Assembly: GCA_022072515.1 (NCBI GenBank)
Contig: JAJVHT010000069.1
Coordinates: forward strand, 30,910-94,909
Source of the DNA: a bacterium
Lineage (GTDB): Bacteria; Zhuqueibacterota; Zhuqueibacteria; Zhuqueibacterales; Zhuqueibacteraceae
Direction: 5' to 3'
DNA length: 64,000 bases
In this document: in pieces, positions 10,600 to 56,730 of the stretch
How the letters are laid out: every line of letters starts with the position of its first letter
Numbering within the stretch: the first letter of the stretch is position 1
Translations under genes and position numbers: made by a program
Notes under the pieces: generated by a model
What the model saw: the letters and a program-made list of their open reading frames with translations, nothing else
Database searches by the model: none
Told to the model about the DNA's origin: nothing

Positions 10600-10640
10600 C
10601 TTTCATCTCCATCGCGAATAAGATATGGTAAATGCGCCAA

Positions 10641-38514: not shown

Positions 38515-40470
38515 TTAAAATTCTCTAAACGTTTCTGGCGCAAATTCGACTTCGCCCAAATCCATCCGCTTTTCTTTTTTGCCCTCAGCACCAGCTGTTG
38601 CCGGCGCCAGCGCCAATTCCCGGGCACGGCCGCATTGCAATTCATACAGCTCGCGGTAAGGCGCGCAAGTTTTCATCAACTGCTCGTGCGTGCCGAAACC
38701 GGCGAGGCGGCCTTCCTCCAAAACCAAAATTTTGTTGGCGCGGGCAAGCGTCGAAAATTTATGCGCGATAATGATCGTTGTTTTGCCTGCCGTCAATTCA
38801 TCGAGAGCCGCGTGCATCTTCGCTTCCGTCTTGGCGTCCAAAGCCGTCGCCGGTTCGTCAAGAATCACAATCGGCGTATTGCGAATGATGGCGCGCGCAA
38901 TATTGAGCCGCTGCTTCTGCCCGCCGGAGAGATTTTCGCCGCCTTGCAAAATCATGGTGTCGTAGCCCTGCGGCATTTGCTCGATGAATTCATGCGCTTG
39001 CGCCAGCTTGGCCGCGTTCACGACCTCGTCATCGGTGGCGTCGATCTTGCCAAAAGCGATATTCTGCCGCACGGTTTTGTTGAAGAGTTTCGCTTCCTGC
39101 AACAACACGGTCAATTGGCCGCGCAGCGATTTGAGCGTAAATTCGCGAATGTCGGCGCCGTCGATCAACACCTGCCCCTGCTGCGGGTCATAAAAACGCA
39201 ACAATAAACTCACGAGCGTGGATTTGCCGGCGCCGCTGTGGCCGACGAGCGCGACGGTTTCACCCGGCGCGATCGCGAAACTGACTTGCTTGATAACGTC
39301 AATATCCTTTTTATAAGCGAAACTTACCCGGCGGAATTCGATGCGACCGGTGAACGCCGGCGCCGGAACCGCATTCGGCGCGTCTTCCATGACGAACTCA
39401 CAATCAATCAGCTCCAAAATGCGCTCGGCGGCAACTTGGGAGCGCGCCAGGTCGAGCAACATGCCGGCAAATTTATCAAGCGGACTGTAAAGTTTTTTCA
39501 AATACGCGACAAACAACACCAGCGTACCGGGCGTAATGGCGCCGCTGAGCGCGAGGCTGCCGCCGTAATAGACCACCAAACAGGTGCCGATCGCAACCAG
39601 CGTATCGGTGACGCGGGAAAAAACCTTCGAGAGCCGCGTCGCCGTGAGCGTCGACTCGAGGCTTTGCCGATTTTCAGTGGCGAATCGGGCCTGCTGCGAA
39701 TCTTCGCGGCCATACGCCTGCACCAAAGCCATCGCGGTGACGCTTTCGGTGATCATGGAGGCGATATTGCTTTCCGTGTTGCGTTTTTTCTTGGTGGCTT
39801 TATGTACTTTCGTGCCGAAACGCCGGTTGTAATAATACATGATCGGAATAACACTGAACGCCATCAGCGCCAAACGCCAGTTCATCGTCCACATCAGGCC
39901 GACGTGCGAGCCGATGGTAACCAGACGATAAACGACATTCTGCGGCACGCCGAGCAGAATCGTCGGCAGTTCGCGCAAATCCGAAATCATGCGATACACC
40001 AGATCGCCGGAGCGAAACGATTCATGAAACGCCAGCGACAACCTTTGCATGTGGCCGAAAATGCGCTCGCGAATTTCCCGAATCATTTTCGCCGAGACCA
40101 TCATCATGCCGACTTTGTGAAAATAAGAAACGAAACTGTCGGCCACATTCAACCCGATAAAAGCCAGCGCGAGCACGGCGAGCAAAGTCGACGGCTCGGC
40201 GCCAAACCAGTTCGTCAAGAAAGCCGCTTGCGGCGGTAATGGATTTTTCAAAATCACGTAATCCATGATCAGCTTCAACGGCCAGGGCGTCAGCAAAGCG
40301 AACCCGACGGTCAACAGCAAGCCGAAATAAGCGACGAGAAGCTGCCGCCAGTGGTTTTTGTAGTGATTGCCAAAAACCTTATAAACCCGCAACAGAATCC
40401 GGTAATCGATCCGATCGACGTCGATCGGCTGTTTGCCAAGTTTGCGTTTAAATTGTGCGCGACCTTGCAT
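38515..40470 (-). CDS. ABC exporter half-transporter (MsbA/type IV exporter-like, TMD-NBD)
   Basis: 651 aa, six N-terminal TM segments. Walker A GHSGAGKSTL, signature LSGGQKQRLNIARA, Walker B IVILDEP, H-loop IIIAHKFST. Confidence 0.9.
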   Translation of the reverse strand: MQGRAQFKRKLGKQPIDVDRIDYRILLRVYKVFGNHYKNHWRQLLVAYFGLLLTVGFALLTPWPLKLIMDYVILKNPLPPQAAFLTNWFGAEPSTLLAVLALAFIGLNVADSFVSYFHKVGMMMVSAKMIREIRERIFGHMQRLSLAFHESFRSGDLVYRMISDLRELPTILLGVPQNVVYRLVTIGSHVGLMWTMNWRLALMAFSVIPIMYYYNRRFGTKVHKATKKKRNTESNIASMITESVTAMALVQAYGREDSQQARFATENRQSLESTLTATRLSKVFSRVTDTLVAIGTCLVVYYGGSLALSGAITPGTLVLFVAYLKKLYSPLDKFAGMLLDLARSQVAAERILELIDCEFVMEDAPNAVPAPAFTGRIEFRRVSFAYKKDIDVIKQVSFAIAPGETVALVGHSGAGKSTLVSLLLRFYDPQQGQVLIDGADIREFTLKSLRGQLTVLLQEAKLFNKTVRQNIAFGKIDATDDEVVNAAKLAQAHEFIEQMPQGYDTMILQGGENLSGGQKQRLNIARAIIRNTPIVILDEPATALDAKTEAKMHAALDELTAGKTTIIIAHKFSTLARANKILVLEEGRLAGFGTHEQLMKTCAPYRELYELQCGRARELALAPATAGAEGKKEKRMDLGEVEFAPETFREF

Positions 40471-40494
40471 GTTGGGTTTCGGAATCTATCCTTA

Positions 40495-42426
40495 TTAGTT
40501 CACCGTGAGGGGCGCCGGCACCAGACGTCCATTATCGCCGCCGGCTTCCATTTCGGGCATGGCCGTTGTCTTTTGCCGGCCAAATTGCAATTCATAAAGC
40601 TCACGATAGGGCGGGCTGTTGTGCAAAAGCTGCTCATGCGAGCCCAAATGCGCCAATTGCCCTTCTTCCAACAAGAGAATTTTGTCGGCATTGGCGACGG
40701 TCGAAAATTTATGCGCGATGATAAACGTCGTCTTGCCGCGAGTGAGACGATGGATGGCGGTATTGATTTGGGCTTCCGTCCGCGCATCCAGGCCGGTGGT
40801 CGGCTCATCGAGGAACACGATCGGCGTCTGGCGCACGACCGCGCGCGCGATGTTGAGGCGTTGCCGCTGCCCGCCGGAAAGATTTTCGCCGCCTTCGTGC
40901 ATCATCGTGTCATAACCTTTCGGCATCTGTTCGATAAAATCATGCGCTTCCGCCAATTTTGCCGCGGTGCGAATCTCCTCATCGGTCGCGTCAAGTTTTC
41001 CGAAGGCGATATTCTCATGCACAGTTTGATGAAACAATCGCGCTTCCTGCAGCAAGATGGTCATTTGTTGGCGCAAAGATTTGAGCGTATAGCGGCGAAT
41101 ATTCACGCCGTCAATAAGAATTTCTCCTTGTCGCGGGTCGTAGAAACGCAGCAACAAGCTGATCAGGGTGGATTTGCCGGCGCCGCTGTGGCCGACGAGC
41201 GCCACCGTTTCGCCCGGCTCTACGACAAAATTGAGATCTTTTAAAACATCGTGACCCGGTTTGTAAGCGAAGCTGACATTTCTGAATTCGATGCGGCCCT
41301 GCAGCGCCGGGGCCGGGATGGCATCCGGATCATCTTGCATGACCATTTCATTTTCAACCAGCTCGAGCAAACGCTCCGCCGCCACCAATGATTTGGCCAG
41401 GCCAAAGAACAGGCTGGTGAATTTTTCAAACGAGCCCACAACCGCCCGCATGTAGTTCACAAAAACCCACAACGTGCCGACGGTGATCGCGCCGCCGAGC
41501 GCAAATTGGCCGCCCCAATATAGCACGCCCGCCGTGCTGAGCACGATGAGAAAATCACTGAGGCGGCTATAGGTTTGATGCATTCGCAGGGTGCGCAATT
41601 GCGCTTCCAAATTCAGCAAATTGCTGGCGCCCAAGCGATAGCGTTCGCTTTCTTCACGGCCATACGCCTGCACGACGGCCATCGAAGTCAAGTTTTCGAC
41701 GATTACCGAGGCCAGCTCACCGGCGCGTTTGCGGGCTCGTTTCATATATTTTTTCATGCCGGCGGTGAAATAACGCGTAAACCAGTAAACCAGCGGCATG
41801 GTGCTGCAGGCAATCAGCGCAAGACGCCAATCAAGGGCCAACATCAGGCCGACATAAGCGACGAACGTCACCACCCGCTGGATAAAATCCTGGGGAAAAT
41901 CAATGAGGATACTTTTCATCTCACTGACATCCGACGTCATCAGATAGACGAGATTGCCGGAGCTGGCGGATTCGTGAAACGACAGCGAGAGGCGGTTGAA
42001 ATGAGAAAAGACGCGTTCGCGGATGTCGGCGGTCATGCGATCTCCGGCGCTCGACACCCAATACTTGTTAATAAACGAAAAGTAGGCTTCGCCAACGGTA
42101 ATGCCGATAATGGCGAGCGCCAGCCCGAGCAAAACCAGCTTGGGCTGTTCAGTAAACAGCGGATTCAGAAAAGCGGCCGGACCTTCCAACGGCGCCCGCA
42201 AAATTAAATTGTCCAAAATGAACTTGAGCGGCCATGGCGACAAAACTTCCAGCCCAATGGCAACCAGCAAGCTCAAATAAGCCACGGTCAGAGTTTTCCA
42301 ATGCTTTTTATAATGCCGTCCGAATACTTTATACACCTTGAGCAAGCCGCCGCGGTCAAGCGGACCAGCGTCGTCCTTTTTCTTGCCAAGGGCGCGTATT
42401 TCGGCGAGGTCTTCCAAAAAGCGCAT
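40495..42426 (-). CDS. ABC exporter half-transporter (MsbA-like), paralog; probable heterodimer partner
   Basis: 643 aa. GHSGAGKSTL, LSGGQRQRLNIARA, IVFLDEP, FIIAHKFST. It lies 24 nt upstream of its paralog. Confidence 0.9.
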   Translation of the reverse strand: MRFLEDLAEIRALGKKKDDAGPLDRGGLLKVYKVFGRHYKKHWKTLTVAYLSLLVAIGLEVLSPWPLKFILDNLILRAPLEGPAAFLNPLFTEQPKLVLLGLALAIIGITVGEAYFSFINKYWVSSAGDRMTADIRERVFSHFNRLSLSFHESASSGNLVYLMTSDVSEMKSILIDFPQDFIQRVVTFVAYVGLMLALDWRLALIACSTMPLVYWFTRYFTAGMKKYMKRARKRAGELASVIVENLTSMAVVQAYGREESERYRLGASNLLNLEAQLRTLRMHQTYSRLSDFLIVLSTAGVLYWGGQFALGGAITVGTLWVFVNYMRAVVGSFEKFTSLFFGLAKSLVAAERLLELVENEMVMQDDPDAIPAPALQGRIEFRNVSFAYKPGHDVLKDLNFVVEPGETVALVGHSGAGKSTLISLLLRFYDPRQGEILIDGVNIRRYTLKSLRQQMTILLQEARLFHQTVHENIAFGKLDATDEEIRTAAKLAEAHDFIEQMPKGYDTMMHEGGENLSGGQRQRLNIARAVVRQTPIVFLDEPTTGLDARTEAQINTAIHRLTRGKTTFIIAHKFSTVANADKILLLEEGQLAHLGSHEQLLHNSPPYRELYELQFGRQKTTAMPEMEAGGDNGRLVPAPLTVN

Positions 42427-42503: not shown

Positions 42504-43499
42504 TCACGCGGCGCTTTTCAAGAAAGCGCTGCCGGCCTCGAGAAGTTGCCGCACCTGTTGTCGCCAATCGGCAACCGCTGGCGCGCGGGTGCAAATCACC
42601 GCTCGGCGCAAATATGCAAAAGCCTGATAGGCCTGCAATCCAGTGAGCATCAGTTGAGGCCGGCGAGCATTATAAGCTTCCAGGAAAGCGTTCTGTAATT
42701 TTTTGCTGCGTGAGCCAAAATGAACTTGCAACGTGACCAAAAAATTGGCAATATCCAGCGCCGGCGTCGAAAGGCATAAGCCGTCGAAATCAATAAAAAA
42801 GGCGCGGTCGGCTGCGAGAAAAATTTGCGCAAGATTCAAATCGCCGTGCACTGGGCACACCGGCGCCGGCGATTCCCTTTCCTCCTGCACCAAACGGATC
42901 AGCAGCGTCTCGACCAATGGCGCGATTTCCGGGTATGCCGCGCTCAACACTTCCGGGCCGGGATGGCAATATTTCTTGAGATGGTCGTCGAGGGTTTTCT
43001 TTTCGCCGACCGCGGCCGTCACCTGATGCAACGTCGCCAAATTTTGAGCGACACGGCGCATCGCCACCACCAGCGTTTCCGGCTCTGCCAGCTCAGATAA
43101 AGCCTGGCCGGGAACAGCACTTTGCACGAGCATGCCCAACTCCGGCTCATACGCCAAAGGCTCCGGCATGCCTAACGGCGCGCCGCCGGCGTGCGCCCCG
43201 GCGCCATCATCACCGGGCGCCGCTTGCCAAAGCTGCCGCCAATTGGCAAAAATGCTTTCACCGCGATTTTTGCGATACATCTTGCCGATGAGGCGGCGCG
43301 GGCGCGCCGGTTTCCCGGCGAACCACAAGAGGTATTCAATCACGCAACGCTTGCCCGGCGTATATTTTAAAACACGGCTGCGAACTTGCCGAAGAGAGTT
43401 CTCTCGCAGCGCCGAATTCCATTGTGCCGAGGCAAACCAGGACAGCATTGCCTCGTCGTCGAGGGCGCGTTTGAGGCCGGGCAGCTTGCGATCATTCAA
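42504..43499 (-). CDS. Kinase-fold protein K5, short form with intact HGD catalytic motif
   Basis: 331 aa. One N-lobe (RVLKYTPGKRCVIEY...LIGKMY), PVHGDLNLAQIF and FIDFDGLCLSTPALDIANFLVTL. The track start is TTG, overlapping the upstream TGA by 4 nt. Confidence 0.7.
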   Translation of the reverse strand: MNDRKLPGLKRALDDEAMLSWFASAQWNSALRENSLRQVRSRVLKYTPGKRCVIEYLLWFAGKPARPRRLIGKMYRKNRGESIFANWRQLWQAAPGDDGAGAHAGGAPLGMPEPLAYEPELGMLVQSAVPGQALSELAEPETLVVAMRRVAQNLATLHQVTAAVGEKKTLDDHLKKYCHPGPEVLSAAYPEIAPLVETLLIRLVQEERESPAPVCPVHGDLNLAQIFLAADRAFFIDFDGLCLSTPALDIANFLVTLQVHFGSRSKKLQNAFLEAYNARRPQLMLTGLQAYQAFAYLRRAVICTRAPAVADWRQQVRQLLEAGSAFLKSAA

Positions 43500-43960
43500 A
43501 AGCCTTCGATCTCCGTTTTGTCGTTCACGATAATCGTGAACCCCAGAACTTCGAGCGTTTTCGTGGCCGCATCGATTTTGGTGATGCCGCCTTGCAATTC
43601 TTCGATATTAAAACCTTTGGATTCCTGCATTTTAACCTTGACCGGCGCAAAACCCGTGGCTTCCGAAAAAGGGCCTTTGAGCTTGACGAGGTCGCCCGCC
43701 TTCAGGTTCTTCAACGTGATAGGCTGCCGTTGCACGTTTTTAATCTCCACACTGCCGTTCAGCACAAAATCACGATTCATCAGACGCATAGAATTCTTTT
43801 CCACCTCGAGACTTTGAATTTTGCCTTCCAGCGCGCATTCTTCATCGCCGGGCTTGATGCTGACTTCGAGTGCGGAAAAATTATTGCCGTCGGCAGGTTT
43901 GCCCTTCACCTTGACCCGTTGTCCCACTTTGAGATTATTGAACCCGATGGTTTTCTCCAT
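43496..43960 (-). CDS. Cytoplasmic DUF5666-like beta-rich protein D2
   Basis: 154 aa, no signal peptide, GGAG upstream of the ATG. Repeated units: LKVGQRVKVKGKPADGNNFSALEV, LKAGDLVKLKG, GGITKIDAATKTLEVLGFTIIVNDKTEIE. The family name is assigned from memory of the motif pattern and is unverified. Confidence 0.55.
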   Translation of the reverse strand: MEKTIGFNNLKVGQRVKVKGKPADGNNFSALEVSIKPGDEECALEGKIQSLEVEKNSMRLMNRDFVLNGSVEIKNVQRQPITLKNLKAGDLVKLKGPFSEATGFAPVKVKMQESKGFNIEELQGGITKIDAATKTLEVLGFTIIVNDKTEIEGF

Positions 43961-44096
43961 AAAAATTCTCCACTGATGAGTTATTTTATTTTTAATCGAA
44001 CATCTTTTTTATAGCCAAACACCGACACAACTTTTCAGAATGGATGCAATGCCATCACCGCGGCCAATCTGCCGGCGGTGATAGGGGCGCGCCGGC

Positions 44097-44606
44097 TTAG
44101 ATGGGAATGTACGGCGTTGGGGCTTCCCGTGCTTCTTCCGGCGTTTCACCCAGCTCAATAACGGTTTTGCCTGACATCAAAATTTTTATCCCGTTCACCC
44201 AAAAAATTTTGCGTTCGTGGTCGATTTTATCGATCACCCCCTGCACCTGTTCAATATTGAATTCCCGGGTTTCTCGCAATTTTATTCGTTTGGGCACAAA
44301 GCCGGCGGCGGGCGTGTGCCGCCCTTTGAGCTTAATCATATCCCCCGCTTCCAAGGCCACTGCATTCAACGGCGCGCCTTCCTCGTCTTTCATTTCCAGA
44401 TCATCCGCTATCAAAATCTCCTGATCACAAAGCCGCAGCACTTTGCGGCGGCGATCGACGCTCTGAATCGGGCATTCGATTTCACTGTCTTTGAGCGCCG
44501 GTTCCAAGCTAATTTCCACGGCCAGAAATCCGGCTCCATCCCGGAATTTGCCGGTAATCTTGACACTGTGACCGGCTTGCAAGTCGCTAAACTCAATCAG
44601 GCTCAT
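44097..44606 (-). CDS. Cytoplasmic DUF5666-like beta-rich protein D1 (paralog of D2)
   Basis: 169 aa, collinear with D2: LQAGHSVKITGKFRDGAGFLAVEI, LEAGDMIKLKG, GVIDKIDHERKIFWVNGIKILMSGKTVIE. ATGA overlap with the K6 stop. Confidence 0.55.
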   Translation of the reverse strand: MSLIEFSDLQAGHSVKITGKFRDGAGFLAVEISLEPALKDSEIECPIQSVDRRRKVLRLCDQEILIADDLEMKDEEGAPLNAVALEAGDMIKLKGRHTPAAGFVPKRIKLRETREFNIEQVQGVIDKIDHERKIFWVNGIKILMSGKTVIELGETPEEAREAPTPYIPI

Positions 44607-45718
44607 AACGTGCTCAGTGGGGTAGGTTCCATTTCTTCCTCAACGTCCGCCGGATCTTCATCCGCGTCAAAATCAAACAGATAACGCTCGGACGACCAGC
44701 CGTGGCGCTGCATTTCTTCAATACACTTGACGCCGGTTTCCACCATGCGTTGGACGCGCCGCCGCCAACCTTCTTCTTGCAAGCGCAAACATTTACAAGC
44801 CCGGCGCAAATTGGTTAATCCTTCGTAGAGCAAGATGCGGTGCGCCACATCGCGCTCGATGCGGGAAAAATATTCATCCAAAAATACGTTGATCAAGTCG
44901 ACCATGGCGGGATTTTTCTTAATCTTGCCGCGCAAAAACACCAGCATGTTACCAAGATCGGAAGCGGGATCACCATAGGCGAGGGCGTCAAAATCGATCA
45001 GCCAGGCGTTGCCGTTTTCAACGTGAATCTGGCCGAGATGAAAATCGCCGTGGATGGGCGTCAGCTTGGCGTCACGAATGAGGCCGGCCTCGATTTTGTG
45101 GGCGGTTTGCACCATGTACTCGATGCGGCTTTCCAATTCCGGGCAAGCCAGCTCGAGAAACGGATAACGCGGATGGCAGCGTAATAAATGATCCTTGACG
45201 AGAAAAGGCTGGTCCAAATTAAGCTCGCACCGATGCAGCTTGGCAATGGTGCGGGCGAGCAGCCGAAAATGCGCCGGACTCGAAGCTTGTTTGACCAAAG
45301 TTTTCAACGGCACGCCCGGCACTTCTTCCTGGAAGAGCATGCACAAGCCGGTGGAAAAGGAGAGCGGCTCGGGAATGCTGATGCCGTCCGCGGCGTTGCG
45401 GGCGAACCCATTTTTCCACAATTGCTGCATGGTTTCAAAAACATGCTCGCCGCGTCTGGCTTTATAAACCTTGCCGATAACACGCCATTCGTGGCGCTGC
45501 TGGGTCGCCAAATTCACCGCGTCGACACGATAGCGAATCACGCAGCGCTGATTGCGCCGGCGAATGATTTCAATGCCGACCGCACGGACTTCGAAATTCT
45601 CACCAAAGTGATTACAAACCAGGGGGGCAAACGTTTGGCACATCCGTTGGGGGTCAAGAGCGATGTCCAACGTGTACAACTTGTCGTGTAAAACCGATGC
45701 GGAAGATGCAGTAGACAT
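44603..45718 (-). CDS. Kinase-fold protein K6, short form with intact HGD catalytic motif
   Basis: One N-lobe (IEIIRRRNQRCVIRY...VIGKVY), PIHGDFHLGQIH and LIDFDALAYGDPASDLGNMLVFL. The track start 45733 is TTG; ATG 45718 is preceded by GAAGGG. Confidence 0.7.
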   Translation of the reverse strand: MSTASSASVLHDKLYTLDIALDPQRMCQTFAPLVCNHFGENFEVRAVGIEIIRRRNQRCVIRYRVDAVNLATQQRHEWRVIGKVYKARRGEHVFETMQQLWKNGFARNAADGISIPEPLSFSTGLCMLFQEEVPGVPLKTLVKQASSPAHFRLLARTIAKLHRCELNLDQPFLVKDHLLRCHPRYPFLELACPELESRIEYMVQTAHKIEAGLIRDAKLTPIHGDFHLGQIHVENGNAWLIDFDALAYGDPASDLGNMLVFLRGKIKKNPAMVDLINVFLDEYFSRIERDVAHRILLYEGLTNLRRACKCLRLQEEGWRRRVQRMVETGVKCIEEMQRHGWSSERYLFDFDADEDPADVEEEMEPTPLSTL

Positions 45719-45870
45719 GACGCTACCCTTCAAAGCTGAATTTCGACGACACGTTTTGAATTAACGCTGCAACGCTTCCGCGTTGCATTCCGTTTACTTT
45801 GTATCTTCAAGCACTCACCCTCCAGACGCCAATCAGCAACCGCAAACGTCCGGACGGTTTTACGAATTTT

Positions 45871-47232
45871 TCAAGCAACAGGTACAGGTTGCGTGGCATC
45901 GGCGCCGCGTGGCGAAACTGCCGGCGCTGCCGCAGGGTGTAATTCAGCGTTTGTAAATGTACCGCGCCGTAGCGCCGTACGCAGAAGCACGCCGATTTTT
46001 TCAATATTCCGAAGCGCGTCAAATTCACGCTCGACTTTGGCGCGCCCTGCCGCACCGAGCCGCCGGGCCAACTCCGGATGCCGCAGCAAAGACTCGAGCG
46101 CTACGGCCACCGCTGCAGAATTTTTTTCCGGCGTCAACAAGCCGCTGACACCGTGTTCCACCAATTCCGGAATGCCGGAAATCGCCGTGGAAACGACCGG
46201 AATGCCCATGGCCATGGCTTCCACCAAAACATTGGGAATGCCGTCACGGTCGCCGTCATTTTGCACTTCACAAGCCAGCGCAAAAACGTCCGCCCGCCGA
46301 TAATATGACCATAACTCGGTTTGCGACATTTGCGGCAACAGCGTGACCTGATTTTGCAAACCCAAGTCCATGATTAATTTTTCCAGCTCGTTTTTCAACG
46401 GCCCGCCGCCAATGAGATAACTCTGAAATTCTAATCCCGCCTGCCGCAGTTGCTGCAACGCCTGCACGAGCACGGGAAAACCTTTTTTCGGCACGAAACG
46501 TCCAATCGACAGAATAACCGGGCAAGCAGCGTTCGCTATTGGGGCGCGTTCCGGCTTGAATAATTCCAGATCGTTGCCATGGTAAACCCGGAACACTGGC
46601 GCGTCCGCGCCGGCAACACGCGCCAAATAAGCGCGGTTGAATTCTGTGCAGGTGACGACGAACTGCGCCCGGCGAATTTTTTCGCGCAAAAAATCGTGCT
46701 CCTGCAAATAAATATCTTTGGCATGCGCGCTGAAGCTGTAGCCCATGCCGGTCAACCAACTCGCGAAATAAGCCACCGTAGTCGGACCGTGGCTAAAGTG
46801 CGCATGCAAATGCGCGACATTCGTTCCCGGCAAACTTTTTTGCACGAGATACGCCGCCTGCGCAAAGCGTTTGATCGTGGATGAACTGCGCTGGCGCAGG
46901 CTGCGTCCCGAAGCAAAGCAAAACGCCCGCCAATAACAGCCCGGCCGATTCCACCACAAACGGAGATTGGCGCCGATAAACGAGAAAAAGAACCGCCAAA
47001 AATAATCCGGAATGTAAGTCACCTGAGCGCGCACCCGGCGCACGCTGTCATGCACCTTGCTCTCGCCGGGATTGCGCATGGCAAAGATGTGCAGCGGTTG
47101 GCCGAGTTGTTCGAGCAATAAAATCTCGTTGACAATGAACGTTTCGGAAAGGCGCGGATAGCCTTTCAGAATGAAACCGACTTTACTTGCCCCGCGGGGG
47201 CGGGAGTTGGGTTGCGCTTCGACAGGCGGCAT
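45871..47232 (-). CDS. Glycosyltransferase family 4 (WcaL-like)
   Basis: 453 aa. The N-terminus (KVGFILKGYPRLSETFIVNEILLLEQLG) is WcaL-like. The C-terminus (DGDRDGIPNVLVEAMAMGIPVVSTAISGIPELVEHGVSGLL) carries the GT4 Ex7E region. Confidence 0.8.
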   Translation of the reverse strand: MPPVEAQPNSRPRGASKVGFILKGYPRLSETFIVNEILLLEQLGQPLHIFAMRNPGESKVHDSVRRVRAQVTYIPDYFWRFFFSFIGANLRLWWNRPGCYWRAFCFASGRSLRQRSSSTIKRFAQAAYLVQKSLPGTNVAHLHAHFSHGPTTVAYFASWLTGMGYSFSAHAKDIYLQEHDFLREKIRRAQFVVTCTEFNRAYLARVAGADAPVFRVYHGNDLELFKPERAPIANAACPVILSIGRFVPKKGFPVLVQALQQLRQAGLEFQSYLIGGGPLKNELEKLIMDLGLQNQVTLLPQMSQTELWSYYRRADVFALACEVQNDGDRDGIPNVLVEAMAMGIPVVSTAISGIPELVEHGVSGLLTPEKNSAAVAVALESLLRHPELARRLGAAGRAKVEREFDALRNIEKIGVLLRTALRRGTFTNAELHPAAAPAVSPRGADATQPVPVA

Positions 47233-47424: not shown

Positions 47425-48627
47425 CTATGTTAATTCTGACACGCTATCATTCACGATTAAGGAAGCCACGCGGGAAGCGCCGCTTAAATCCGGCATTTGG
47501 GCTTCCGCAAAGCGCGGCGTTTTGCGCAAACGCTGCCAGATCAGCTCGGCAAAATTTTCCGGCGTCAGGCGCGTCGGATGGATCGTGCCGAACAGGCCAC
47601 GCGCGGCCATCAGACGCGAGCGCATGCTTTGTTCGGCGCTGGGACCGGCGCGGGGAACGACGATGGCGTTTTTGCGAAAATGCAGAATTTCGCTGATCGT
47701 GTTGTAGCCGGCCATCGAAATGACGAGATTGGCCCGCCGCAAAAAGCGCACACTGTCTTCGCCCATCCGGCTCACCGTGATCGGCAAGTTTTTGGTTTTG
47801 TGATGCAGCAGCTCACGTTGCTCTTTGCTCATAAACGGGCCGGTGGTGACGAACGCCTGGAACTTCAAATCGCTGCGCAACAAACGGGCAGCGTCGATAA
47901 ATTGATCCATAAAAAACGAGGCATCTGCGCCGCCGCCGCCGGTGACCAAAATAAACTTGCCGTCTTGCTTTGCGCGCCGCAATTTCTTTTTCGGCCCCGG
48001 CAGGGGCTCGACGTTTTCGCGGCAGACATAACCGCAATACTGCGCTTTGCCCAACAACGAGGCGGGAAATTCATATTGCGCGATCACATCGAACAAATCA
48101 GCGCAGCCGTAAATAAACACGGCGTCATAAAACGCATCGATGGCCTCAAAAGCGCCTTCCGTTTTCCATTGCCGGCGAATCACTTCCGGCGCCCCTAAAA
48201 TATCCCGAATGCCCAAAATCACTTTAGTATGCGGGCTGTGTTGCCGCAAAATTTGCAAAGGTTCGGCCAATTCACCCAATGCGCCATGCGGCATATGGTC
48301 CACCAAAAAAACGTCGGGCTGATAGCTGATGGCAACATTGCGAATAATGTCGGAGCGAATCGCCAATACCTCCCGCTCGCTCATGGGCAGCCGGTCCGGC
48401 CGCCAAACGCCGGTATCAACCTTGATGATAGTTGGGATCTTGATGAAATCACAATTGGACGGCAGTTTAAAGAAGGGGGCTACCGGGGAATCCGCGATAA
48501 TGAGACACGAAGCCTGGGTGCGGCGCTTCTTGATCTGCGTACAGATATTGAGGTTACGTCGCAAATGTCCCAAGCCGAAGCCGTCCTGGGAATAAATCAA
48601 AACCCTGGTTGCTGATCCGTGTGCCAT
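47425..48627 (-). CDS. GT-B glycosyltransferase, MurG/GT28-like (COG4671-type predicted glycosyltransferase)
   Basis: 400 aa. RVLIYSQDGFGLGHLRRNLNI at the N-terminus; VISMAGYNTISEILHFRKNAIVVPRAGPSAEQSMRSR resembles a GT28 C-terminal domain. Confidence 0.65.
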   Translation of the reverse strand: MAHGSATRVLIYSQDGFGLGHLRRNLNICTQIKKRRTQASCLIIADSPVAPFFKLPSNCDFIKIPTIIKVDTGVWRPDRLPMSEREVLAIRSDIIRNVAISYQPDVFLVDHMPHGALGELAEPLQILRQHSPHTKVILGIRDILGAPEVIRRQWKTEGAFEAIDAFYDAVFIYGCADLFDVIAQYEFPASLLGKAQYCGYVCRENVEPLPGPKKKLRRAKQDGKFILVTGGGGADASFFMDQFIDAARLLRSDLKFQAFVTTGPFMSKEQRELLHHKTKNLPITVSRMGEDSVRFLRRANLVISMAGYNTISEILHFRKNAIVVPRAGPSAEQSMRSRLMAARGLFGTIHPTRLTPENFAELIWQRLRKTPRFAEAQMPDLSGASRVASLIVNDSVSELT

Positions 48628-48735: not shown

Positions 48736-49959
48736 TTATGATGCAACTTTAAGCTCAACCGCTGGCGACGAGCCGCTGAGCGCTCGAATCCTTTCTGCAA
48801 GTTTTGCAAAGCCATCCAACGGAATGCCTTCATAAAACGGCTTCTGTGCCAAGCGCGGTCCGTTGAACAGCGTCTGGTTGATGAATTCCTGCAAAACGGC
48901 GGGGTGATACTCTTCCGGCGACACGAGCTTGAGCAAACCCAGCTCTTGCAATAAGCGCGCGCGGCAGAAATTCGCCGGTTGCTGCTTGAGGTTGGGAACC
49001 GCCAACGCGGCTTTACGATGCGCCAGAATTTCACAGATCAAATTATACTCGCCCGCGCCGATCACCAGACTGGCAAAGCGCACATATTGCAAAGTGTGCT
49101 TGCCAAACCGTTGAAACATCACATTGGGCAGCTTTTGCGCGCGCTGGGCAAAGCTGCGTTTTTCATGCGGGCCAATTGCCGGGCCCGCGACGACAAAACT
49201 TTGAAACGCGATACCGTCATTCTTTTTTTCCAAAAAGCGCAAATACGCGTCAATCATGGCGCTATCGCCGGCGCCGCCCGCCGAGCTTAACATCACCAAC
49301 GGCAAATTGCGGTTCATTTTCGCCACGTTTTCACTAACCTTGCGTGACGGCATGCTGAGACGCGCCAGATAGCCGGTATAAAAAATTTTGCCCGCGACCG
49401 CCGGCGGAAGCTGATACTTTTCGGCCAGATTAAAGACCCGCGACGCGCCATAAACAAAAATTTCATCCGCGCACTGCGTTAAGACCTCGAGAATATCGTT
49501 GCGGGCCCATTGTTGCATAACCCATTCCGGCGCCCCCAGCGTATCGGACAAACCCCAAATAATTTTAGCGGTTGCCAACTCATCCCGCACGCAATCCACG
49601 ATCCGCCGCATTTCATCCGGCTGCTCCAATAAGCTCTCATCCAGCATCACCACATCCGGGCGAAAAGTCTTAATGGCGCTCTGCGCAATCTTGCGGCGAA
49701 GGCGCAGCTTGTTATCATGCTCGATATTGAGGCCGCCGAACAACTGGCCTGCCTGATCTTTAACCTCAAGAACAGGAAGATGCACATAATCAACTCTCTC
49801 GGCCAACCGAAACCGGCCCACGGTCGATAGATCCGTCAGCACCAGAATCGAACAACCTTCCAATGCTTTGGAGAGGGAAGCCGCGATGTTGAGCGTGCGC
49901 GATGTCTGTCCCAATCCTCGGCTGTCATTACAATACATGAGTATGCGCAGCGAGGACAT
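48736..49959 (-). CDS. GT-B glycosyltransferase, MurG/GT28-like, paralog
   Basis: 407 aa. LRILMYCNDSRGLGQTSRTLNIA and VIGAGEYNLICEILAHRKAALAVP. Same architecture as 47425-48627. Confidence 0.6.
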   Translation of the reverse strand: MSSLRILMYCNDSRGLGQTSRTLNIAASLSKALEGCSILVLTDLSTVGRFRLAERVDYVHLPVLEVKDQAGQLFGGLNIEHDNKLRLRRKIAQSAIKTFRPDVVMLDESLLEQPDEMRRIVDCVRDELATAKIIWGLSDTLGAPEWVMQQWARNDILEVLTQCADEIFVYGASRVFNLAEKYQLPPAVAGKIFYTGYLARLSMPSRKVSENVAKMNRNLPLVMLSSAGGAGDSAMIDAYLRFLEKKNDGIAFQSFVVAGPAIGPHEKRSFAQRAQKLPNVMFQRFGKHTLQYVRFASLVIGAGEYNLICEILAHRKAALAVPNLKQQPANFCRARLLQELGLLKLVSPEEYHPAVLQEFINQTLFNGPRLAQKPFYEGIPLDGFAKLAERIRALSGSSPAVELKVAS

Positions 49960-50559: not shown

Positions 50560-51795
50560 TTACTCGAATCGCAATGCCGCAATCGGATCCATTTTGGCGG
50601 CCTGGCGCGCCGGATAGATCCCGAAAACAATTCCAACCAGAGCGGAGATACCGAAGGAAATCACCACGCTGAACAGTGAGATCACCGTTTCCCAACCGGC
50701 AAATAGATTGATGGCTTTCGCCATTACCACCCCGAGAATGATACCGATCGTGCCGCCGGTCACGCTGATCATAATCGTTTCATTGAGAAATTGGCCAAGA
50801 ATATCACGCTCGGTGGCGCCCAAGGCGCGGCGCGTCCCGATCTCTTTCGTGCGTTCGGTCACACTGGCCAGCATGATATTCATAATGCCAATGCCGCCAA
50901 CCAGCAGCGAAATTGCGGCAATCGAGCCCATGACAATATTGAATACGCGCTGCGTTTTTTGGCTCTGCGCCAACAGCTCGGCCGGAATGATAATTTCATA
51001 ATCATTCACGCCGTTGTGCGTGCGGTTCAGCAGCCGCTTGACCACTTCAGAAGTGGGAACGACTTGATCTTCTTTTTCAACTTGAATCGCAATCTCCTCG
51101 ACGGCATTGGGCCGGTCTTCGTCGGTGTAACGCTTCAAGGCCGTGGTGATGGGTATATAAACATCTTTATTGATATTACGCAGCTTGATCACCGAGGCCT
51201 TGCCCTCTTTGACCGTCTTGGCCTCCATCACGCCGATCACGACAAACCACGTGTCGCCAATTCTGATCCGGCGGCCAACCGGATTGCGATATCCGAACAA
51301 CTCGCTGCGAATTTCCGAACCGATCACACAAACGCGCTTGGCCTCCGCCACATCCAGCGCGCCGATGAAACGGCCCTCGCTCGGATGAAAATTGGTCACC
51401 CATTGGTACGTTTCGTCGGTGCCGACGACGCGGCCATTGGATTCCTTATTGCCCAACATAATTTCCGTTTCCACAAAACGCACAGGCGTCACGCCTTTGA
51501 CGCTGGGCAAATTCTCACGAATCAATTGGCCGTCGCGATACGTCAAACCACGGGAGTTCTTTTGCTCTGCCTCTTCAGCTTGTTCGCCGGTCAGCTTCAA
51601 CTGATTGACGCGAATATTATTGGTTCCCAGCAGTTTGATCTGTTCCACGGCCTCACGCTTGGCACCTTCTCCGATCGACAGCATTGAAATGACGGCTGCC
51701 ACGCCGAAAATCACGCCGAGGGTCGTTAAAAACGACCGCAGCTTGTGAACCAATATGCTTTTGATGCCGATGCGTAAGTTTTCCGAAAATTGCAT
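50560..51795 (-). CDS. ABC transporter permease, MacB/FtsX family
   Basis: 411 aa. N-terminal TM (LRSFLTTLGVIFGVAAVISMLSIGEG), a large periplasmic domain, then three C-terminal TMs with ERTKEIGTRRALGA. Confidence 0.9.
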   Translation of the reverse strand: MQFSENLRIGIKSILVHKLRSFLTTLGVIFGVAAVISMLSIGEGAKREAVEQIKLLGTNNIRVNQLKLTGEQAEEAEQKNSRGLTYRDGQLIRENLPSVKGVTPVRFVETEIMLGNKESNGRVVGTDETYQWVTNFHPSEGRFIGALDVAEAKRVCVIGSEIRSELFGYRNPVGRRIRIGDTWFVVIGVMEAKTVKEGKASVIKLRNINKDVYIPITTALKRYTDEDRPNAVEEIAIQVEKEDQVVPTSEVVKRLLNRTHNGVNDYEIIIPAELLAQSQKTQRVFNIVMGSIAAISLLVGGIGIMNIMLASVTERTKEIGTRRALGATERDILGQFLNETIMISVTGGTIGIILGVVMAKAINLFAGWETVISLFSVVISFGISALVGIVFGIYPARQAAKMDPIAALRFE

Positions 51796-51975
51796 GGTGT
51801 CAACCTCGATGAATAAGCGCCTCGCTGCACCGACACGCTTAGTTGTACTGTCATTCCAGCAGGTTCGCGCAAAATGAAATGGTCAGGATTTATCCGGCGT
51901 AGAAGTAAATATGTACAACGCAATCTCGCAATCAACCGGTGGCGAGAAATCGTTTCAAGATTTATGTCTTGCGTC

Positions 51976-52701
51976 TCACGCTTCCGGCATTTCTTGAAAT
52001 AAATCTTTCAACTGTTGAATCTCTTTGCCCACAAGCTGACGCAAAATTTTCCCGTCTTGCATGTGAATAAGCCGGCGCGCCCATTTGGCTTTGTTCATTT
52101 CGTGGGTCACCAAAACGACGGTCGTGCCCTTCGCGTTCAAACCTTGCAAAATTTCCATGATTTCGTGGCCGGTTTTGGTGTCGAGGTTGCCTGTCGGTTC
52201 ATCCGCGAAAATAATCTGCGGCTTGGTTACCAGGGCGCGCGCAATCGCCACCCGCTGGTTCTCGCCGCCGGAAAGCTCATTGGGACGGTGATTGGGGCGG
52301 TGTCCCAGGCCGACGGCCTTCAACATTTCGAGGCAGAGCTCCCGCCTTTGTGCCCGCTCGATGCCCATGTAAATCAACGGCACTTCGACATTTTCCACGA
52401 CGGTAAGCTGCATAATTAAATTGAAGGCTTGAAACACAAAACCGACTTTACGATTGCGCAGGCGGGACAACTCCACGTCGTCAAGCTTCTCCACCGGCGT
52501 GCCATCAAGCGAGTAGGTGCCGCCGGAAGGTCGATCCAAACAGCCCAGCAAATGCATGAGCGTGGACTTGCCGGAGCCTGACGGCCCCATGATCGCCAGG
52601 AATTCACCTTTCTCGACATTCAAAGAGACGCCGCGCAGCGCTTTCACTACCGTCTCACCCATCACATATTCCCGCCGCAGCTCTTTTACCTCAACCAGCA
52701 T
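51976..52701 (-). CDS. ABC transporter ATP-binding protein (MacB/LolD-type)
   Basis: [44 protein letters not shown] 52701 is preceded by AAGGAG; the track start 52704 is TTG. Confidence 0.9.
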
Positions 52702-52752
52702 CAATTTCTCCTTACGGAATTTTATTCCGCCTTAAATTTCCCGTCTTGCCAA

Positions 52753-53982: not shown

Positions 53983-54020
53983 AAATTCACCTGATATGGA
54001 TTCGCCTGCAATGTCCCGAC

Positions 54021-55619: not shown

Positions 55620-55662
55620 TACCTCGGTGTAACTAACAAAGCGGAGCGTTCATTATTTTATT

Positions 55663-55772
55663 GCACCTATTCAGCTATTTTACCGCCCGGGCAGTTATTT
55701 TGGAGATGTGTTATATCGCGCCATTTATTTTTGCACACAGATTTGAGCGCCCGGGCGGTACTGAACAGTTAC
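55663..55772 (+). repeat. Palindromic ~110-nt repeat, copy 2
   Basis: gcacctattcagctattttaccgcccgggc ... gcgcccgggcggtactgaacagttac. By eye about nine-tenths identical to copy 1. It ends 3 nt from the stop of the DUF5666-like gene. Confidence 0.85.
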
Positions 55773-55775
55773 ATT

Positions 55776-56354
55776 TTATTTTACAACAGATTGCACCTTG
55801 GTCGCCTCGACGATTTTAAACGTCGTGCCCATCATCGTTACCGTCCGCTTAATCGGATCGATTTTTTCGACTTTTCCGACCGCCCGGATTTCATTCAACT
55901 CGTTCGGCTTGAAATCGGTTTCCTGCTGAATTTCTTCCGCCGAAAATGTACCGTCTTTCAAAAAGGTGCCCTCACACTCCACCAACATGCCTGTTTTCAG
56001 ATCAGCAAAACCTTTGAAGGTGCCTTCGGGACTTTCGTACTCGCTCTCCGCTGTGGCCAACACGGAAATACGTCCAATCGTAAATTGTTTTTTGGTCGGA
56101 CTGATCGTTTTCACCACCCCTTTCAACTCCCAATCATCATCCTGAAAATCACCGGTCAGAAATTTAACCTTCTTGGTGCTCAGAGAAAAATCCGATTGTA
56201 GAGTGCCTTCCAACTCCACCCATTGGCCGACCTTGATCGTTTTAAACAGATCCGCCGCTGACTTTTGCATACCCACCTGGGCGACGCCGGTGTTGACCAT
56301 GGCCAAAAACACGGCGGCGATAAGGGACGAGGTCCACTTCGTATTCGCTTTCAT
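55776..56354 (-). CDS. Secreted DUF5666-like beta-rich protein D3
   Basis: ATG 56354 is preceded by AAGGAG and gives signal peptide MKANTKWTSSLIAAVFLAMVNTGVAQV. Repeated units: IKVGQWVELEG, LKTGMLVECEG, VGKVEKIDPIKRTVTMMGTTFKIVEATKVQ. Confidence 0.6.
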   Translation of the reverse strand: MKANTKWTSSLIAAVFLAMVNTGVAQVGMQKSAADLFKTIKVGQWVELEGTLQSDFSLSTKKVKFLTGDFQDDDWELKGVVKTISPTKKQFTIGRISVLATAESEYESPEGTFKGFADLKTGMLVECEGTFLKDGTFSAEEIQQETDFKPNELNEIRAVGKVEKIDPIKRTVTMMGTTFKIVEATKVQSVVK

Positions 56355-56730
56355 AATAGACTCCTTGCAATAGATTTGATTGAATGCTTGGTTTGTTGAC
56401 AGCGGCTTTCTTATATTTTGCATTTCTAAAAGTCGCGTGCCAATTTTCCGGCCGAGTGACTAAACCAGAAACGGAAGCACTCACGGGTTCGCACAGTTAA
56501 AAGGGCAAATAGGAATTTTTAGGGTGACCAACTGCATGGTAAATATACGAATACTGCGGCTGACTTTGTGTCATGAACTTGTCCGGTGTTTGTAAAATCT
56601 ACGTCACAAAATCTATCGCTGTGCAACAAGAGATAGGGGGATAAGAGTGAGGCGGAGAGGTTGGCCCAAAATAAAAAGCGCAGAGCGGCGCGCCACAGCC
56701 CTGCGCTTATACAAAAATACCAAAAATTTA

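What the first reader, a model, noticed from the sequence alone, without database searches (positions are those of the whole stretch)
42504..45718. Mirror-image pairs: each catalytically intact kinase is translationally coupled to a cytoplasmic DUF5666-like protein
**Seen.** The gene order is K6-D1-(136-nt gap)-D2-K5. The K6 stop overlaps the D1 start (ATGA), and the D2 stop overlaps the K5 start (TTGA). D1 and D2 are collinear paralogs with repeated small beta-barrel-like units (L.AGD.[IV]KLKG; G.I.KID....[LF].V.G..I......IE). Neither has a signal peptide. A third paralog, D3 at 55776-56354, does have one.

**Inference.** One-to-one coupling suggests kinase/partner complexes, with D as substrate, adaptor or cargo-binding subunit. 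From memory, the domain family is usually seen in secreted proteins, so a cytoplasmic, kinase-coupled version would be unusual.
Basis: partly seen in the sequence, partly recalled or inferred. Interest (0 to 1): 0.6.

Follow-up and report, generated by a model that had tools for sequence, protein, structure and literature searches.

The report
Free-standing twin-barrel modules between two kinases
Two small signal-less beta-barrel proteins lie between two active small-molecule kinases in a conserved sugar-building and export gene cluster of an uncultured KSB1 bacterium; elsewhere the same module is fused to sugar-adding and methylating enzymes, so it is probably a general helper part of the assembly line, not a kinase-specific partner or substrate.

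Summary
On the minus strand the order is K6, D1, a 136-nt gap, D2, K5. The K6/D1 junction is an ATGA overlap and the D2/K5 junction a TTGA overlap. D1 and D2 are 38% identical DUF5666 proteins without signal peptides, and D3 has one.

- **For a K–D link:** in KSB1 genomes a D gene lies directly next to a short kinase in about 20 of 24 loci, and the D2/K5 4-nt overlap recurs in many.
- **Against a 1:1 pair as the conserved unit:**
  - Many loci have one D between two kinases.
  - Others place D after a GT28-type glycosyltransferase, with K6 and K5 adjacent to each other.
  - More distant loci have ABC–ABC–GT4–GT28C–D and no kinase.
  - A third intact K6-like kinase in this genome has no D.
- **Fusions:** a profile search found 44 free-standing and 24 single-module fusion clusters. 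The identified partners are glycosyltransferases of seven Pfam families, methyltransferases and LicD, never a kinase. One partner is an ortholog of this cluster's GT28C_b.
- **Kinase class:** K6 resembles choline, aminoglycoside, methylthioribose and maltose kinases, not protein kinases.

Best reading: D is a cytoplasmic, non-catalytic twin OB-like barrel module of a glycoconjugate assembly/export line, probably binding a shared acceptor or tethering enzymes. Its biochemical function is untested.

The parts
44603..45733 (-). K6: APH-fold small-molecule kinase, catalytically intact. The last ~33 residues form an acidic, disordered C-terminal tail.
   Evidence: Pfam APH 58.4 bits. Invariant K88, H228-G-D230, Q235 and D247/D249 across orthologs. 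AF2 model pLDDT 87.6; the best PDB folds are choline, APH, MTR and homoserine kinases.
44097..44606 (-). D1: free-standing cytoplasmic DUF5666 twin-barrel module (169 aa, pI 5.2). Its start overlaps the K6 stop (ATGA).
   Evidence: The D1 clade has 100% support and sits after K6 in type-A loci.
43961..44096 (-). 136-nt D1-D2 spacer with a GC-rich hairpin followed by an AT-rich stretch and a GGAG before the D2 start.
   Evidence: The fold is not better than shuffles (z -1.18). No terminator or promoter consensus hit lies in the spacer.
43496..43960 (-). D2: free-standing cytoplasmic DUF5666 twin-barrel module (154 aa, pI 8.6). Its stop overlaps the K5 start (TTGA).
   Evidence: Pfam DUF5666 52.2 bits. 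49 close homologs, most of 154 aa. AF2 pLDDT 93.9, pTM 0.88, all-beta. The clade of D2 plus single-D loci has 96% support.
42504..43499 (-). K5: APH-fold small-molecule kinase, catalytically intact, 30% identical to K6.
   Evidence: None of 120 homolog clusters carries DUF5666.
47425..48627 (-). GT28C_b: GT-B glycosyltransferase. It is the gene that directly precedes D in type-B and type-C loci and is fused to D in P0194.
   Evidence: The P0194 GT part is 39% identical to it (E 1e-59) and is followed by a D module.
48736..49959 (-). GT28C_a: the second GT28C-type glycosyltransferase and first gene of the conserved module.
45871..47232 (-). GT4 glycosyltransferase (EpsE-like) directly upstream of K6.
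38515..42426 (-). ABC1 and ABC2: two MsbA/NdvA/PglK-like half-transporter exporters directly downstream of K5.
   Evidence: Conserved in all related loci.
55776..56423 (-). D3: secreted version of the same permuted module, with a signal peptide after Met24 (start 56354). It lies upstream of TolC-HlyD-MacB.
   Evidence: The same D3-TolC-HlyD-MacB arrangement lies next to the cluster in L024.

Best explanation
D1 and D2 are free-standing copies of a roughly 150-residue cytoplasmic, non-catalytic module. The module is built from DUF5666 repeats in a permuted register (half unit, full unit, half unit) and is modelled as a compact all-beta body made of OB-like small barrels.

The module belongs to a glycoconjugate assembly-and-export line: two GT28C-type GTs, a GT4, two active APH-fold kinases, base-less kinase paralogs and an MsbA/PglK-like ABC exporter pair. 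It does not belong to the kinases specifically. In other lineages the same module is covalently fused to the line's glycosyltransferases, methyltransferases or LicD. In KSB1 it is a separate gene that has come to lie between K6 and K5.

The most likely mechanism is inferred, not shown. The module would bind something common to all steps, either the anionic (lipid-pyrophosphate-linked or phosphorylated) acceptor or a shared docking surface. Binding would go through its invariant Lys-rich strands (VKVKGK, VKLKG, KVK). The module would thereby present the acceptor to the neighbouring enzyme, or hold that enzyme on it. In this window the neighbouring enzymes are the kinases. The overlapping stop/start codons give co-expression with K6 and K5. 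They do not show an obligate 1:1 complex.
For: **Conserved module.** GT28Ca-GT28Cb-GT4-K6-D(-D)-K5-ABC-ABC recurs across KSB1 contigs and genomes.

**D moves within the cluster.**
- Type B: GT28Cb-D(-D)-GT4-K6-K5 (L010, L024, L025, L042, L043, L051; also G040, G074, G121, G144).
- L052: GT4-D-K6-K5-K6'.
- Type C: ABC-ABC-GT4-GT28C-D with no kinase (L008, L009, L011).

**Profile search of 1.84 billion representatives, best 150 classified.**
- 44 free-standing clusters, none with an N-terminal hydrophobic segment.
- 24 single-module fusions.
- 82 secreted multi-repeat proteins, 71 with a hydrophobic N-terminus.

**Fusion partners.** GT2, Glyco_trans_1_2, GT4, GT9, GT10, NodZ-like, GT28C, class-I and FkbM methyltransferases, and LicD. 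The fused modules are 32-50% identical to D2. They start in the same permuted register: the Pfam match begins at about position 33 of 60.

**Link to this cluster's own GT.** P0194 is an ortholog of GT28C_b fused to D.

**Several D-bearing enzymes per cluster.** Consecutive genes on one contig each carry a D module on a different enzyme (L030-L032, L053).

**Conserved residues.** K17, K93 and K95 are invariant. R15, K19, K36, K108 and K110 are nearly invariant, and all lie on predicted strands.

**A secreted copy travels with the cluster.** D3 lies next to the TolC-HlyD-MacB pump that accompanies the cluster. This fits a ligand that travels with the product.
Against: - No binding, interface or localisation was tested.
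- The fold search found no informative two-barrel homolog. No hit had E<0.001; the best were single OB-like barrels such as PilY2 and CusF.
- In KSB1, D is adjacent to a short kinase in most loci, and D2/K5 overlap is frequent, so a kinase-directed role in this lineage is not excluded.
- 21 of 23 fused modules form one clade. The fusions may therefore reflect domain shuffling in one lineage rather than many independent events.
- D1 is acidic overall (pI 5.2), which weakens a simple 'basic surface binds anion' picture.
- The chemical nature of the cluster's product is unknown.
Confidence: 0.55

Rival explanations
1. One reading: each active kinase forms a dedicated 1:1 complex with its neighbouring D (K6:D1, K5:D2), with D acting as regulatory, adaptor or cargo-binding subunit of the kinase.
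For: - D is adjacent to a K-short gene in about 20 of 24 KSB1 loci.
- The D2/K5 4-nt overlap recurs in L004, L012, L016, L020-L022, L035-L038, L040, L041 and L047.
- The D1 and D2 clades track the K6 and K5 positions.
- In Acidobacteriota, K-like kinase genes alternate with genes for MT-D and X-D fusion proteins.
Against: - Many loci keep K6 and K5 but only one D, always of D2 type.
- Type-B loci put K6 next to K5 and D next to GT28C_b.
- Type-C loci have D without kinases.
- A third intact K6-like kinase in this genome (40% identical) sits beside an NRPS C-A-T-TE gene with no D.
- There is no kinase-D fusion among the 24 fusions or among 120 K5-family clusters.
- The K6/D1 overlap is seen only in the closest relatives.
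Confidence: 0.2
2. D is an oligomerising or docking domain that assembles the pathway's enzymes into one complex, possibly on the ABC exporter, without binding the substrate.
For: The same module sits on many different enzymes of one cluster. Among the weak fold hits is an S-layer self-assembly domain.
Against: - A free-standing docking domain with no enzyme attached has no obvious job.
- The secreted paralog D3 and the secreted multi-repeat DUF5666 proteins cannot dock to cytoplasmic enzymes.
- No oligomer prediction was possible.
Confidence: 0.15
3. D1 and D2 are protein substrates, or a precursor or primer, that the kinases phosphorylate and the GTs glycosylate before export.
For: D is the only conserved non-enzyme in the module. 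The best NCBIfam hit of K5 and K6, although far below cut-off, is the peptide kinase LxmK (40 bits against 315).
Against: - The structural neighbours of K6 are all small-molecule kinases, and so are its profile hits.
- T149 is the only conserved hydroxyl residue. Position 98, Tyr in most members, is Phe in D2 and His in D1.
- The module is conserved over its full length and is fused to enzymes at their N-terminus, C-terminus or internally.
- The ABC exporters lack a peptidase domain.
Confidence: 0.05

Closest known systems
Pfam DUF5666 (PF18914) repeat proteins, including the PilY2-like small barrel (PDB 3tdq)
   Same: D1, D2 and D3 pass the Pfam threshold. The single-barrel fold resembles PilY2 and CusF-type OB-like barrels.
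   Different: Typical members are secreted multi-repeat proteins, often with T9SS sorting domains. D1 and D2 are single 150-aa modules in a permuted register. They are cytoplasmic, and they are either free-standing or fused to GT/MT enzymes.
WbdD kinase/methyltransferase terminator plus the Wzt carbohydrate-binding module of ABC-transporter-dependent O-antigen synthesis (E. coli O9a; PMC3482155)
   Same: The logic matches. Cytoplasmic GT4-type glycan synthesis is combined with kinase (and, in related loci, methyltransferase) tailoring, a non-catalytic binding module and ABC export.
   Different: WbdD was not among the PDB hits of the K5/K6 profile at E<=1. The exporters here are MsbA/PglK-type rather than Wzm/Wzt. 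From my own knowledge, not tested here, the Wzt CBM is a beta-sandwich fused to the transporter, whereas D is a twin small-barrel module that is free or fused to enzymes. This is an analogy only.
Maltokinase (Mak/Pep2) and glucosamine kinase family (PDB 5jy7, 4o7o, 4u94, 6hwj)
   Same: K5 and K6 share the H-G-D-x-H-x-G-Q catalytic loop. The K5/K6 profile hits these structures at E 1e-5 to 1e-4.
   Different: The TIGR02457 score is 24 bits against a cut-off of 375. The top structural neighbours are choline, APH and MTR kinases. The substrate is unknown.
Self-resistance logic of oleandomycin- or streptomycin-type clusters (intracellular modification, ABC export, extracellular reactivation)
   Same: Intracellular kinases and GT1-like GTs, ABC exporters and a secreted metallophosphoesterase occur in the same cluster.
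   Different: No antibiotic scaffold genes lie inside the conserved GT-K-D-ABC module. Those systems have no D-like component, as far as I know. Not tested.

Membership tests
Pfam DUF5666 (PF18914) | Score above the gathering threshold (27 bits) | tested here: met
   D1 30.2, D2 52.2 and D3 55.8 bits.
Pfam DUF5666 (PF18914), typical secreted form | Signal peptide and/or tandem repeats with a secretion sorting domain | tested here: not met
   D1 and D2 have no N-terminal hydrophobic segment and no possible upstream extension. None of 44 free-standing relatives has one, against 71 of 82 multi-repeat proteins.
APH / eukaryotic-like small-molecule kinases (PF01636) | Pfam score above threshold, plus the ATP-binding Lys, the catalytic H-x-D loop and the Mg-binding D-x-D | tested here: met
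   K6 58.4 and K5 49.8 bits. K88, H228-G-D230 and D247/D249 are invariant in 18 orthologs. The fold matches choline, APH and MTR kinases at E 4e-9 or weaker, TM about 0.5-0.57.
Maltokinase (TIGR02457 / Mak) | Score above the curated cut-off | tested here: not met
   K6 scores 24.2 bits against 375. Only the catalytic-loop motif HGDxHxGQ is shared.
Class V lanthipeptide kinase LxmK (NF038156) | Score above the curated cut-off | tested here: not met
   About 40 bits against 315 for both K5 and K6.
WbdD-type glycan-terminating kinase | Sequence similarity to the WbdD kinase domain | tested here: not met
   No WbdD chain appears among the 41 PDB hits of the K5/K6 profile at E<=1.
   Single-D loci, type-B and type-C loci, and a D-less K6 paralog all exist.
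   Only single-chain prediction of unmodified sequences is offered.

The most novel reading that the evidence does not exclude
The 150-residue permuted DUF5666 module would be a new family of cytoplasmic glycan- or phosphoglycan-binding (CBM-like 'reader') modules. It would act in cis when fused to GTs, MTs or LicD, and in trans as free D1/D2. It would mark a widespread, undescribed pathway for kinase- and methyl-decorated glycoconjugates that depends on an MsbA/PglK-type exporter, found in KSB1, Acidobacteriota and other uncultured phyla. The secreted paralog D3 would hand the same product to a TolC-MacB pump.
Probability: 0.3. Interest if true: 0.7.

Novelty: new variant of a known kind. Interest (0 to 1): 0.45.

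Why it matters
DUF5666 is a large family with no known function, and the literature mentions it only incidentally: 6 papers in the searched library. This work shows three things about one sub-family:
- It is cytoplasmic.
- It is strongly conserved (44 free-standing clusters at 50% identity among the best 150 hits).
- It is repeatedly attached to unrelated glycan-building and tailoring enzymes.

That gives the family its first functional context. It also gives a concrete hypothesis to test: an accessory acceptor-binding or tethering module of glycoconjugate assembly lines.

The work also corrects an attractive but too narrow reading, that of kinase-specific partner or substrate. Finally, it defines a conserved GT-kinase-D-ABC module in the uncultured KSB1 phylum whose product is unknown.

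Tried and rejected
- **PDB sequence search with single kinases.** K6 or K5 alone gave nothing. A profile was needed.
- **Fold search with the D2 model.** No hit had E<0.001, only generic single OB-like barrels. No TOBE/Mop, PilZ or CBM match appeared that could name a ligand.
- **ESM Atlas.** It returned only other DUF5666 clusters.
- **NCBIfam.** No model matches D1 or D2.
- **D1-D2 spacer.** The hairpin is not better than shuffles, and no promoter or terminator consensus lies there. I did not pursue separate transcription units.
- **Unknown fusion partners.** PDB sequence search with P0071 and P0180 gave nothing.
- **Context of fusion genes.** The contigs are mostly 2-7 kb, too short to show whole clusters.
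- **RiPP-precursor or carrier-protein ideas for D.** Rejected. D is conserved over its full length. The conserved C-terminal EIEGF is not free in the fusions. No conserved acceptor residue is present in D1 and D2 apart from T149.
- **Literature on KSB1 plus glycosyltransferase plus BGC.** None found.
- **Model coordinates.** They are not exposed, so I could not verify the strand-swapped barrel topology or map the Lys patch in 3D.
Full report
**1. What is in the sequence**

All genes of the region lie on the minus strand. In transcription order:

| Gene | Coordinates | Length | Pfam |
|---|---|---|---|
| K6 | 44603-45733 | 376 aa | APH |
| D1 | 44097-44606 | 169 aa | DUF5666 |
| spacer | 43961-44096 | 136 nt | – |
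| D2 | 43496-43960 | 154 aa | DUF5666 |
| K5 | 42504-43499 | 331 aa, TTG start | APH |

- The K6 stop and D1 start share ATGA. The D2 stop and K5 start share TTGA.
- The K5 TTG start is credible because the residues it encodes (…DRKLPGL…) are conserved at the N-terminus of K5 orthologs.
- D1 and D2 are 38% identical without gaps. K6 and K5 are 30% identical.
- Neither D ORF can be extended upstream, and neither has a hydrophobic N-terminus. D3 (55776-56423) has a typical signal peptide after Met24 and is collinear with D2.

The 4-nt overlaps themselves are ordinary operon features. By the ORF coordinates, two other minus-strand junctions in the window have the same overlap.

**2. Context**

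The four genes sit in a long co-directional block:
- GT28C_a, GT28C_b, GT4, K6, D1, D2, K5;
- two MsbA/NdvA/PglK-like ABC half-transporters;
- three longer APH paralogs, a GT4-like GT and another long APH paralog;
- a T9SS-sorted metallophosphoesterase;
- MbtH, a type II thioesterase, a T9SS protease, a sulfotransferase and an NRPS module.

Upstream lie D3-TolC-HlyD-MacB and the PAPS-supply genes. Further downstream lie halogenases, an O-methyltransferase, a GT2 and others. The organism is a KSB1-phylum MAG, 4.6 Mb and 79% complete.

**3. The kinases**

Across 18 orthologs, K5 and K6 keep the ATP-binding Lys, the H-G-D catalytic loop, a Gln five residues after the Asp, and the D-x-D metal site.

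A profile of these sequences hits only small-molecule kinases in the PDB. These include APH family proteins, the ACAD11 kinase domain, maltokinases, APH(2''), glucosamine kinase and amicoumacin kinase. The best E-value is 2e-6.

The AF2 model of K6 (pLDDT 87.6) finds choline/ethanolamine kinases, APHs, methylthioribose kinase, homoserine kinase, a steroid kinase and PsiK as nearest folds. No protein kinase is among the top 50. No curated NCBIfam model is reached; LxmK scores 40 bits against 315 and maltokinase 24 against 375.

K5 and K6 are thus intact small-molecule or glycan kinases of unknown substrate.

**4. Is K–D adjacency conserved?**

D2 has 49 close homolog clusters, most of exactly 154 aa, from KSB1 and metagenomes. 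I mapped gene order by BLAST of locus ORFs against the window's proteins. I also compared the coordinates of D and K-short hits in 151 genomes of the phylum. Five arrangements recur:

| Type | Arrangement | Where seen |
|---|---|---|
| A | …GT4-K6-D1-D2-K5-ABC… (as in the window) | 7 loci in the phylum sample; about 15 contigs |
| A' | K6-D-K5, one D | 8 loci in the sample; L004, L016, L020-L022, L047, L060 |
| B | GT28Cb-D(-D)-GT4-K6-K5 | 4 in the sample; L010, L024, L025, L042, L043, L051 |
| (one locus) | GT4-D-K6-K5-K6' | L052 |
| C | ABC-ABC-GT4-GT28C-D, no kinase on the contig | L008, L009, L011; 45-47% identity to D2 |

The phylum sample also has 5-6 loci in which one D lies next to a single K-short hit.

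Overall, D touches a short kinase in about 20 of 24 KSB1 loci. The D2/K5 4-nt overlap recurs in about 13 loci. The K6/D1 overlap occurs only in the nearest relatives (L048, L062).

A tree of the modules gives a D1 clade (100% support). D2 and all single-D loci form one clade (96%). When only one D is present, it is therefore D2-type, and K6 then has no D1.

A third K6-like kinase in the same genome lies on contig C4. It is 40% identical to K6 and keeps its Lys, HGD and D-x-D. It overlaps the end of an NRPS C-A-T-TE gene and has no D nearby.

Adjacency is thus a strong lineage habit, but 1:1 pairing is not the conserved unit.

**5. The wider family: the key result**

A profile of 28 D proteins was searched against 1.84 billion representatives. 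It gave 3237 hits at E≤1e-3 and 164 at E≤1e-30. The best 150 fall into three classes:

| Class | Count | With hydrophobic N-terminus |
|---|---|---|
| Multi-repeat proteins | 82 | 71 |
| Free-standing modules | 44 | 0 |
| Proteins with a single module plus other domains | 24 | 1 (an artefact inside the module) |

The multi-repeat proteins sampled often carry T9SS sorting domains.

The identified fusion partners are:
- GT2;
- Glyco_trans_1_2;
- GT4;
- GT9;
- GT10 fucosyltransferase;
- a NodZ-like GT;
- GT28C;
- class-I and FkbM methyltransferases;
- LicD.

Several partners have no Pfam hit. The fused modules are 32-50% identical to D2. None of the unknown partner regions matches K1-K6.

The GT part of P0194 is 39% identical (E 1e-59) to this window's GT28C_b. 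GT28C_b is the very gene that precedes D in types B and C.

My own ORF calls on raw contigs confirm continuous GT2-D, D-MT and MT-D reading frames. On single contigs, consecutive genes each carry a D module on a different enzyme (L030-L032, L053).

Among 120 K5-family clusters, none carries DUF5666.

In Vicinamibacterales (Acidobacteriota) and related metagenome contigs, APH kinases alternate with MT-D and X-D fusion genes. The order is K-long-like, MT-D, (MT-D), K6-like, X-D. Kinases and D-bearing proteins therefore do travel together in a second phylum, but there D sits on the methyltransferase.

**6. Structure of D**

AF2 with the 28-sequence alignment gives a confident model (pLDDT 93.9, pTM 0.88). 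It is almost all beta, with 12 strands.

The sequence register is the second half of a DUF5666 unit, then a full unit, then the first half of a unit (Pfam coordinates). This implies two small barrels, one of them closed by the N- and C-terminal halves.

Foldseek against the PDB finds nothing significant. The best hits are single OB-like barrels: PilY2, CusF and cold-shock/S1-type domains.

The invariant or near-invariant residues are dominated by Lys and Arg on alternate strand positions: R15, K17, K19, K36, K93, K95, K108 and K110. T149 is the only well-conserved hydroxyl residue. The mostly-Tyr position 98 is Phe in D2 and His in D1.

**7. Interpretation**

*Shown:*
- D1 and D2 belong to a cytoplasmic sub-family of DUF5666.
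- The sub-family is an integral, mobile component of a conserved GT-kinase-ABC-exporter module.
- The same module is repeatedly fused to glycan-building or tailoring enzymes of unrelated folds, but not to kinases.
- The kinases are small-molecule type.

*Inferred:*
- D is a non-catalytic accessory module.
- It either binds something common to all steps or tethers enzymes. The common ligand would be a lipid-(pyro)phosphate-linked or otherwise anionic glycan acceptor, which fits the conserved basic strands.
- The secreted paralog D3 beside the TolC-HlyD-MacB pump is conserved next to the cluster in L024, and the pump itself in L012, L038, L042, L043, L052 and L062. This favours a ligand that travels with the product over a purely protein-docking role.
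- In this window, translational coupling would ensure co-production of D with K6 and K5. That is compatible with D serving the kinases here, but not exclusively.

The closest functional analogy is the WbdD kinase/methyltransferase plus Wzt carbohydrate-binding module logic of ABC-dependent O-antigen synthesis (PMC3482155). There is no homology to either component.

**8. Verdict**

The arrangement is real and conserved in KSB1. The evidence, however, points to a general assembly-line module rather than a kinase-specific partner or substrate.

The cytoplasmic, enzyme-fused DUF5666 sub-family appears undescribed. I rate it a new variant of a known kind (a domain family of unknown function), of moderate interest. 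The biochemical function remains untested.

Earlier notes of this scan on the same window (e1-3923972, -973, -975, -979, -984) describe the surrounding block. I re-derived the gene order and the maltokinase/glucosamine-kinase similarity independently.

Noticed in passing
own genome contig C4:27097-28065 (L070:8068-9135): A third K6-like APH kinase (40% identical to K6; Lys, HGD and D-x-D retained; His in place of the Gln). It overlaps the end of an NRPS C-A-T-TE gene by 13 nt. A GT4-like GT, a polysaccharide deacetylase, two sulfotransferases, a BNR protein, a TonB receptor and a PPTase follow. No DUF5666 gene is nearby.
   Followed up: partly
window 44603-44705 (K6 C-terminus): K6 and most of its orthologs end in a disordered, strongly acidic tail (pI about 4; pLDDT below 50 from residue 360). 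K5 orthologs lack it. In the window the tail immediately precedes D1.
   Followed up: no
window 50560-56423; L024:374-6197; L042/L043:1-3800: The MacB-HlyD-TolC pump is conserved next to the GT28C_a end of the cluster in several relatives. In L024 the secreted D3-like gene again lies directly upstream of TolC. D3 therefore looks like a fixed part of the pump operon rather than a mobile cassette.
   Followed up: partly
L028:7756-14022; L061, L063-L065: Vicinamibacterales-type loci alternate APH kinases with methyltransferase-D fusions and with a fusion of D to a domain weakly like HATPase_c_2. A GT28C gene, a Kelch protein and a TonB-type OMP lie nearby.
   Followed up: partly
L052:7001-10747: One KSB1-like contig has D followed by three short kinases (K6-K5-K6') before the ABC exporters.
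   Followed up: no
L004:11876-13339; L016:13683-14831; L020:13472-14620; L022:5734-6879: Several relatives carry an extra gene of 380-490 aa between ABC1 and ABC2. It has no Pfam hit on record, and only a short weak similarity to part of the T9SS metallophosphoesterase. The window lacks it.
   Followed up: no
P0014, P0018, P0026 (D2 orthologs): Some D2 orthologs carry C-terminal low-complexity tails rich in Arg, Asp, Pro, Gly and Glu (RPDRGERPDR-like repeats). The window's D2 lacks them.
   Followed up: no
window 9256-11927: Two adjacent flavin-dependent halogenase genes, an acyl-CoA dehydrogenase, a stand-alone adenylating enzyme and an O-methyltransferase lie downstream in the same strand block. 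They point to an aromatic or acyl decoration of the product.
   Followed up: no
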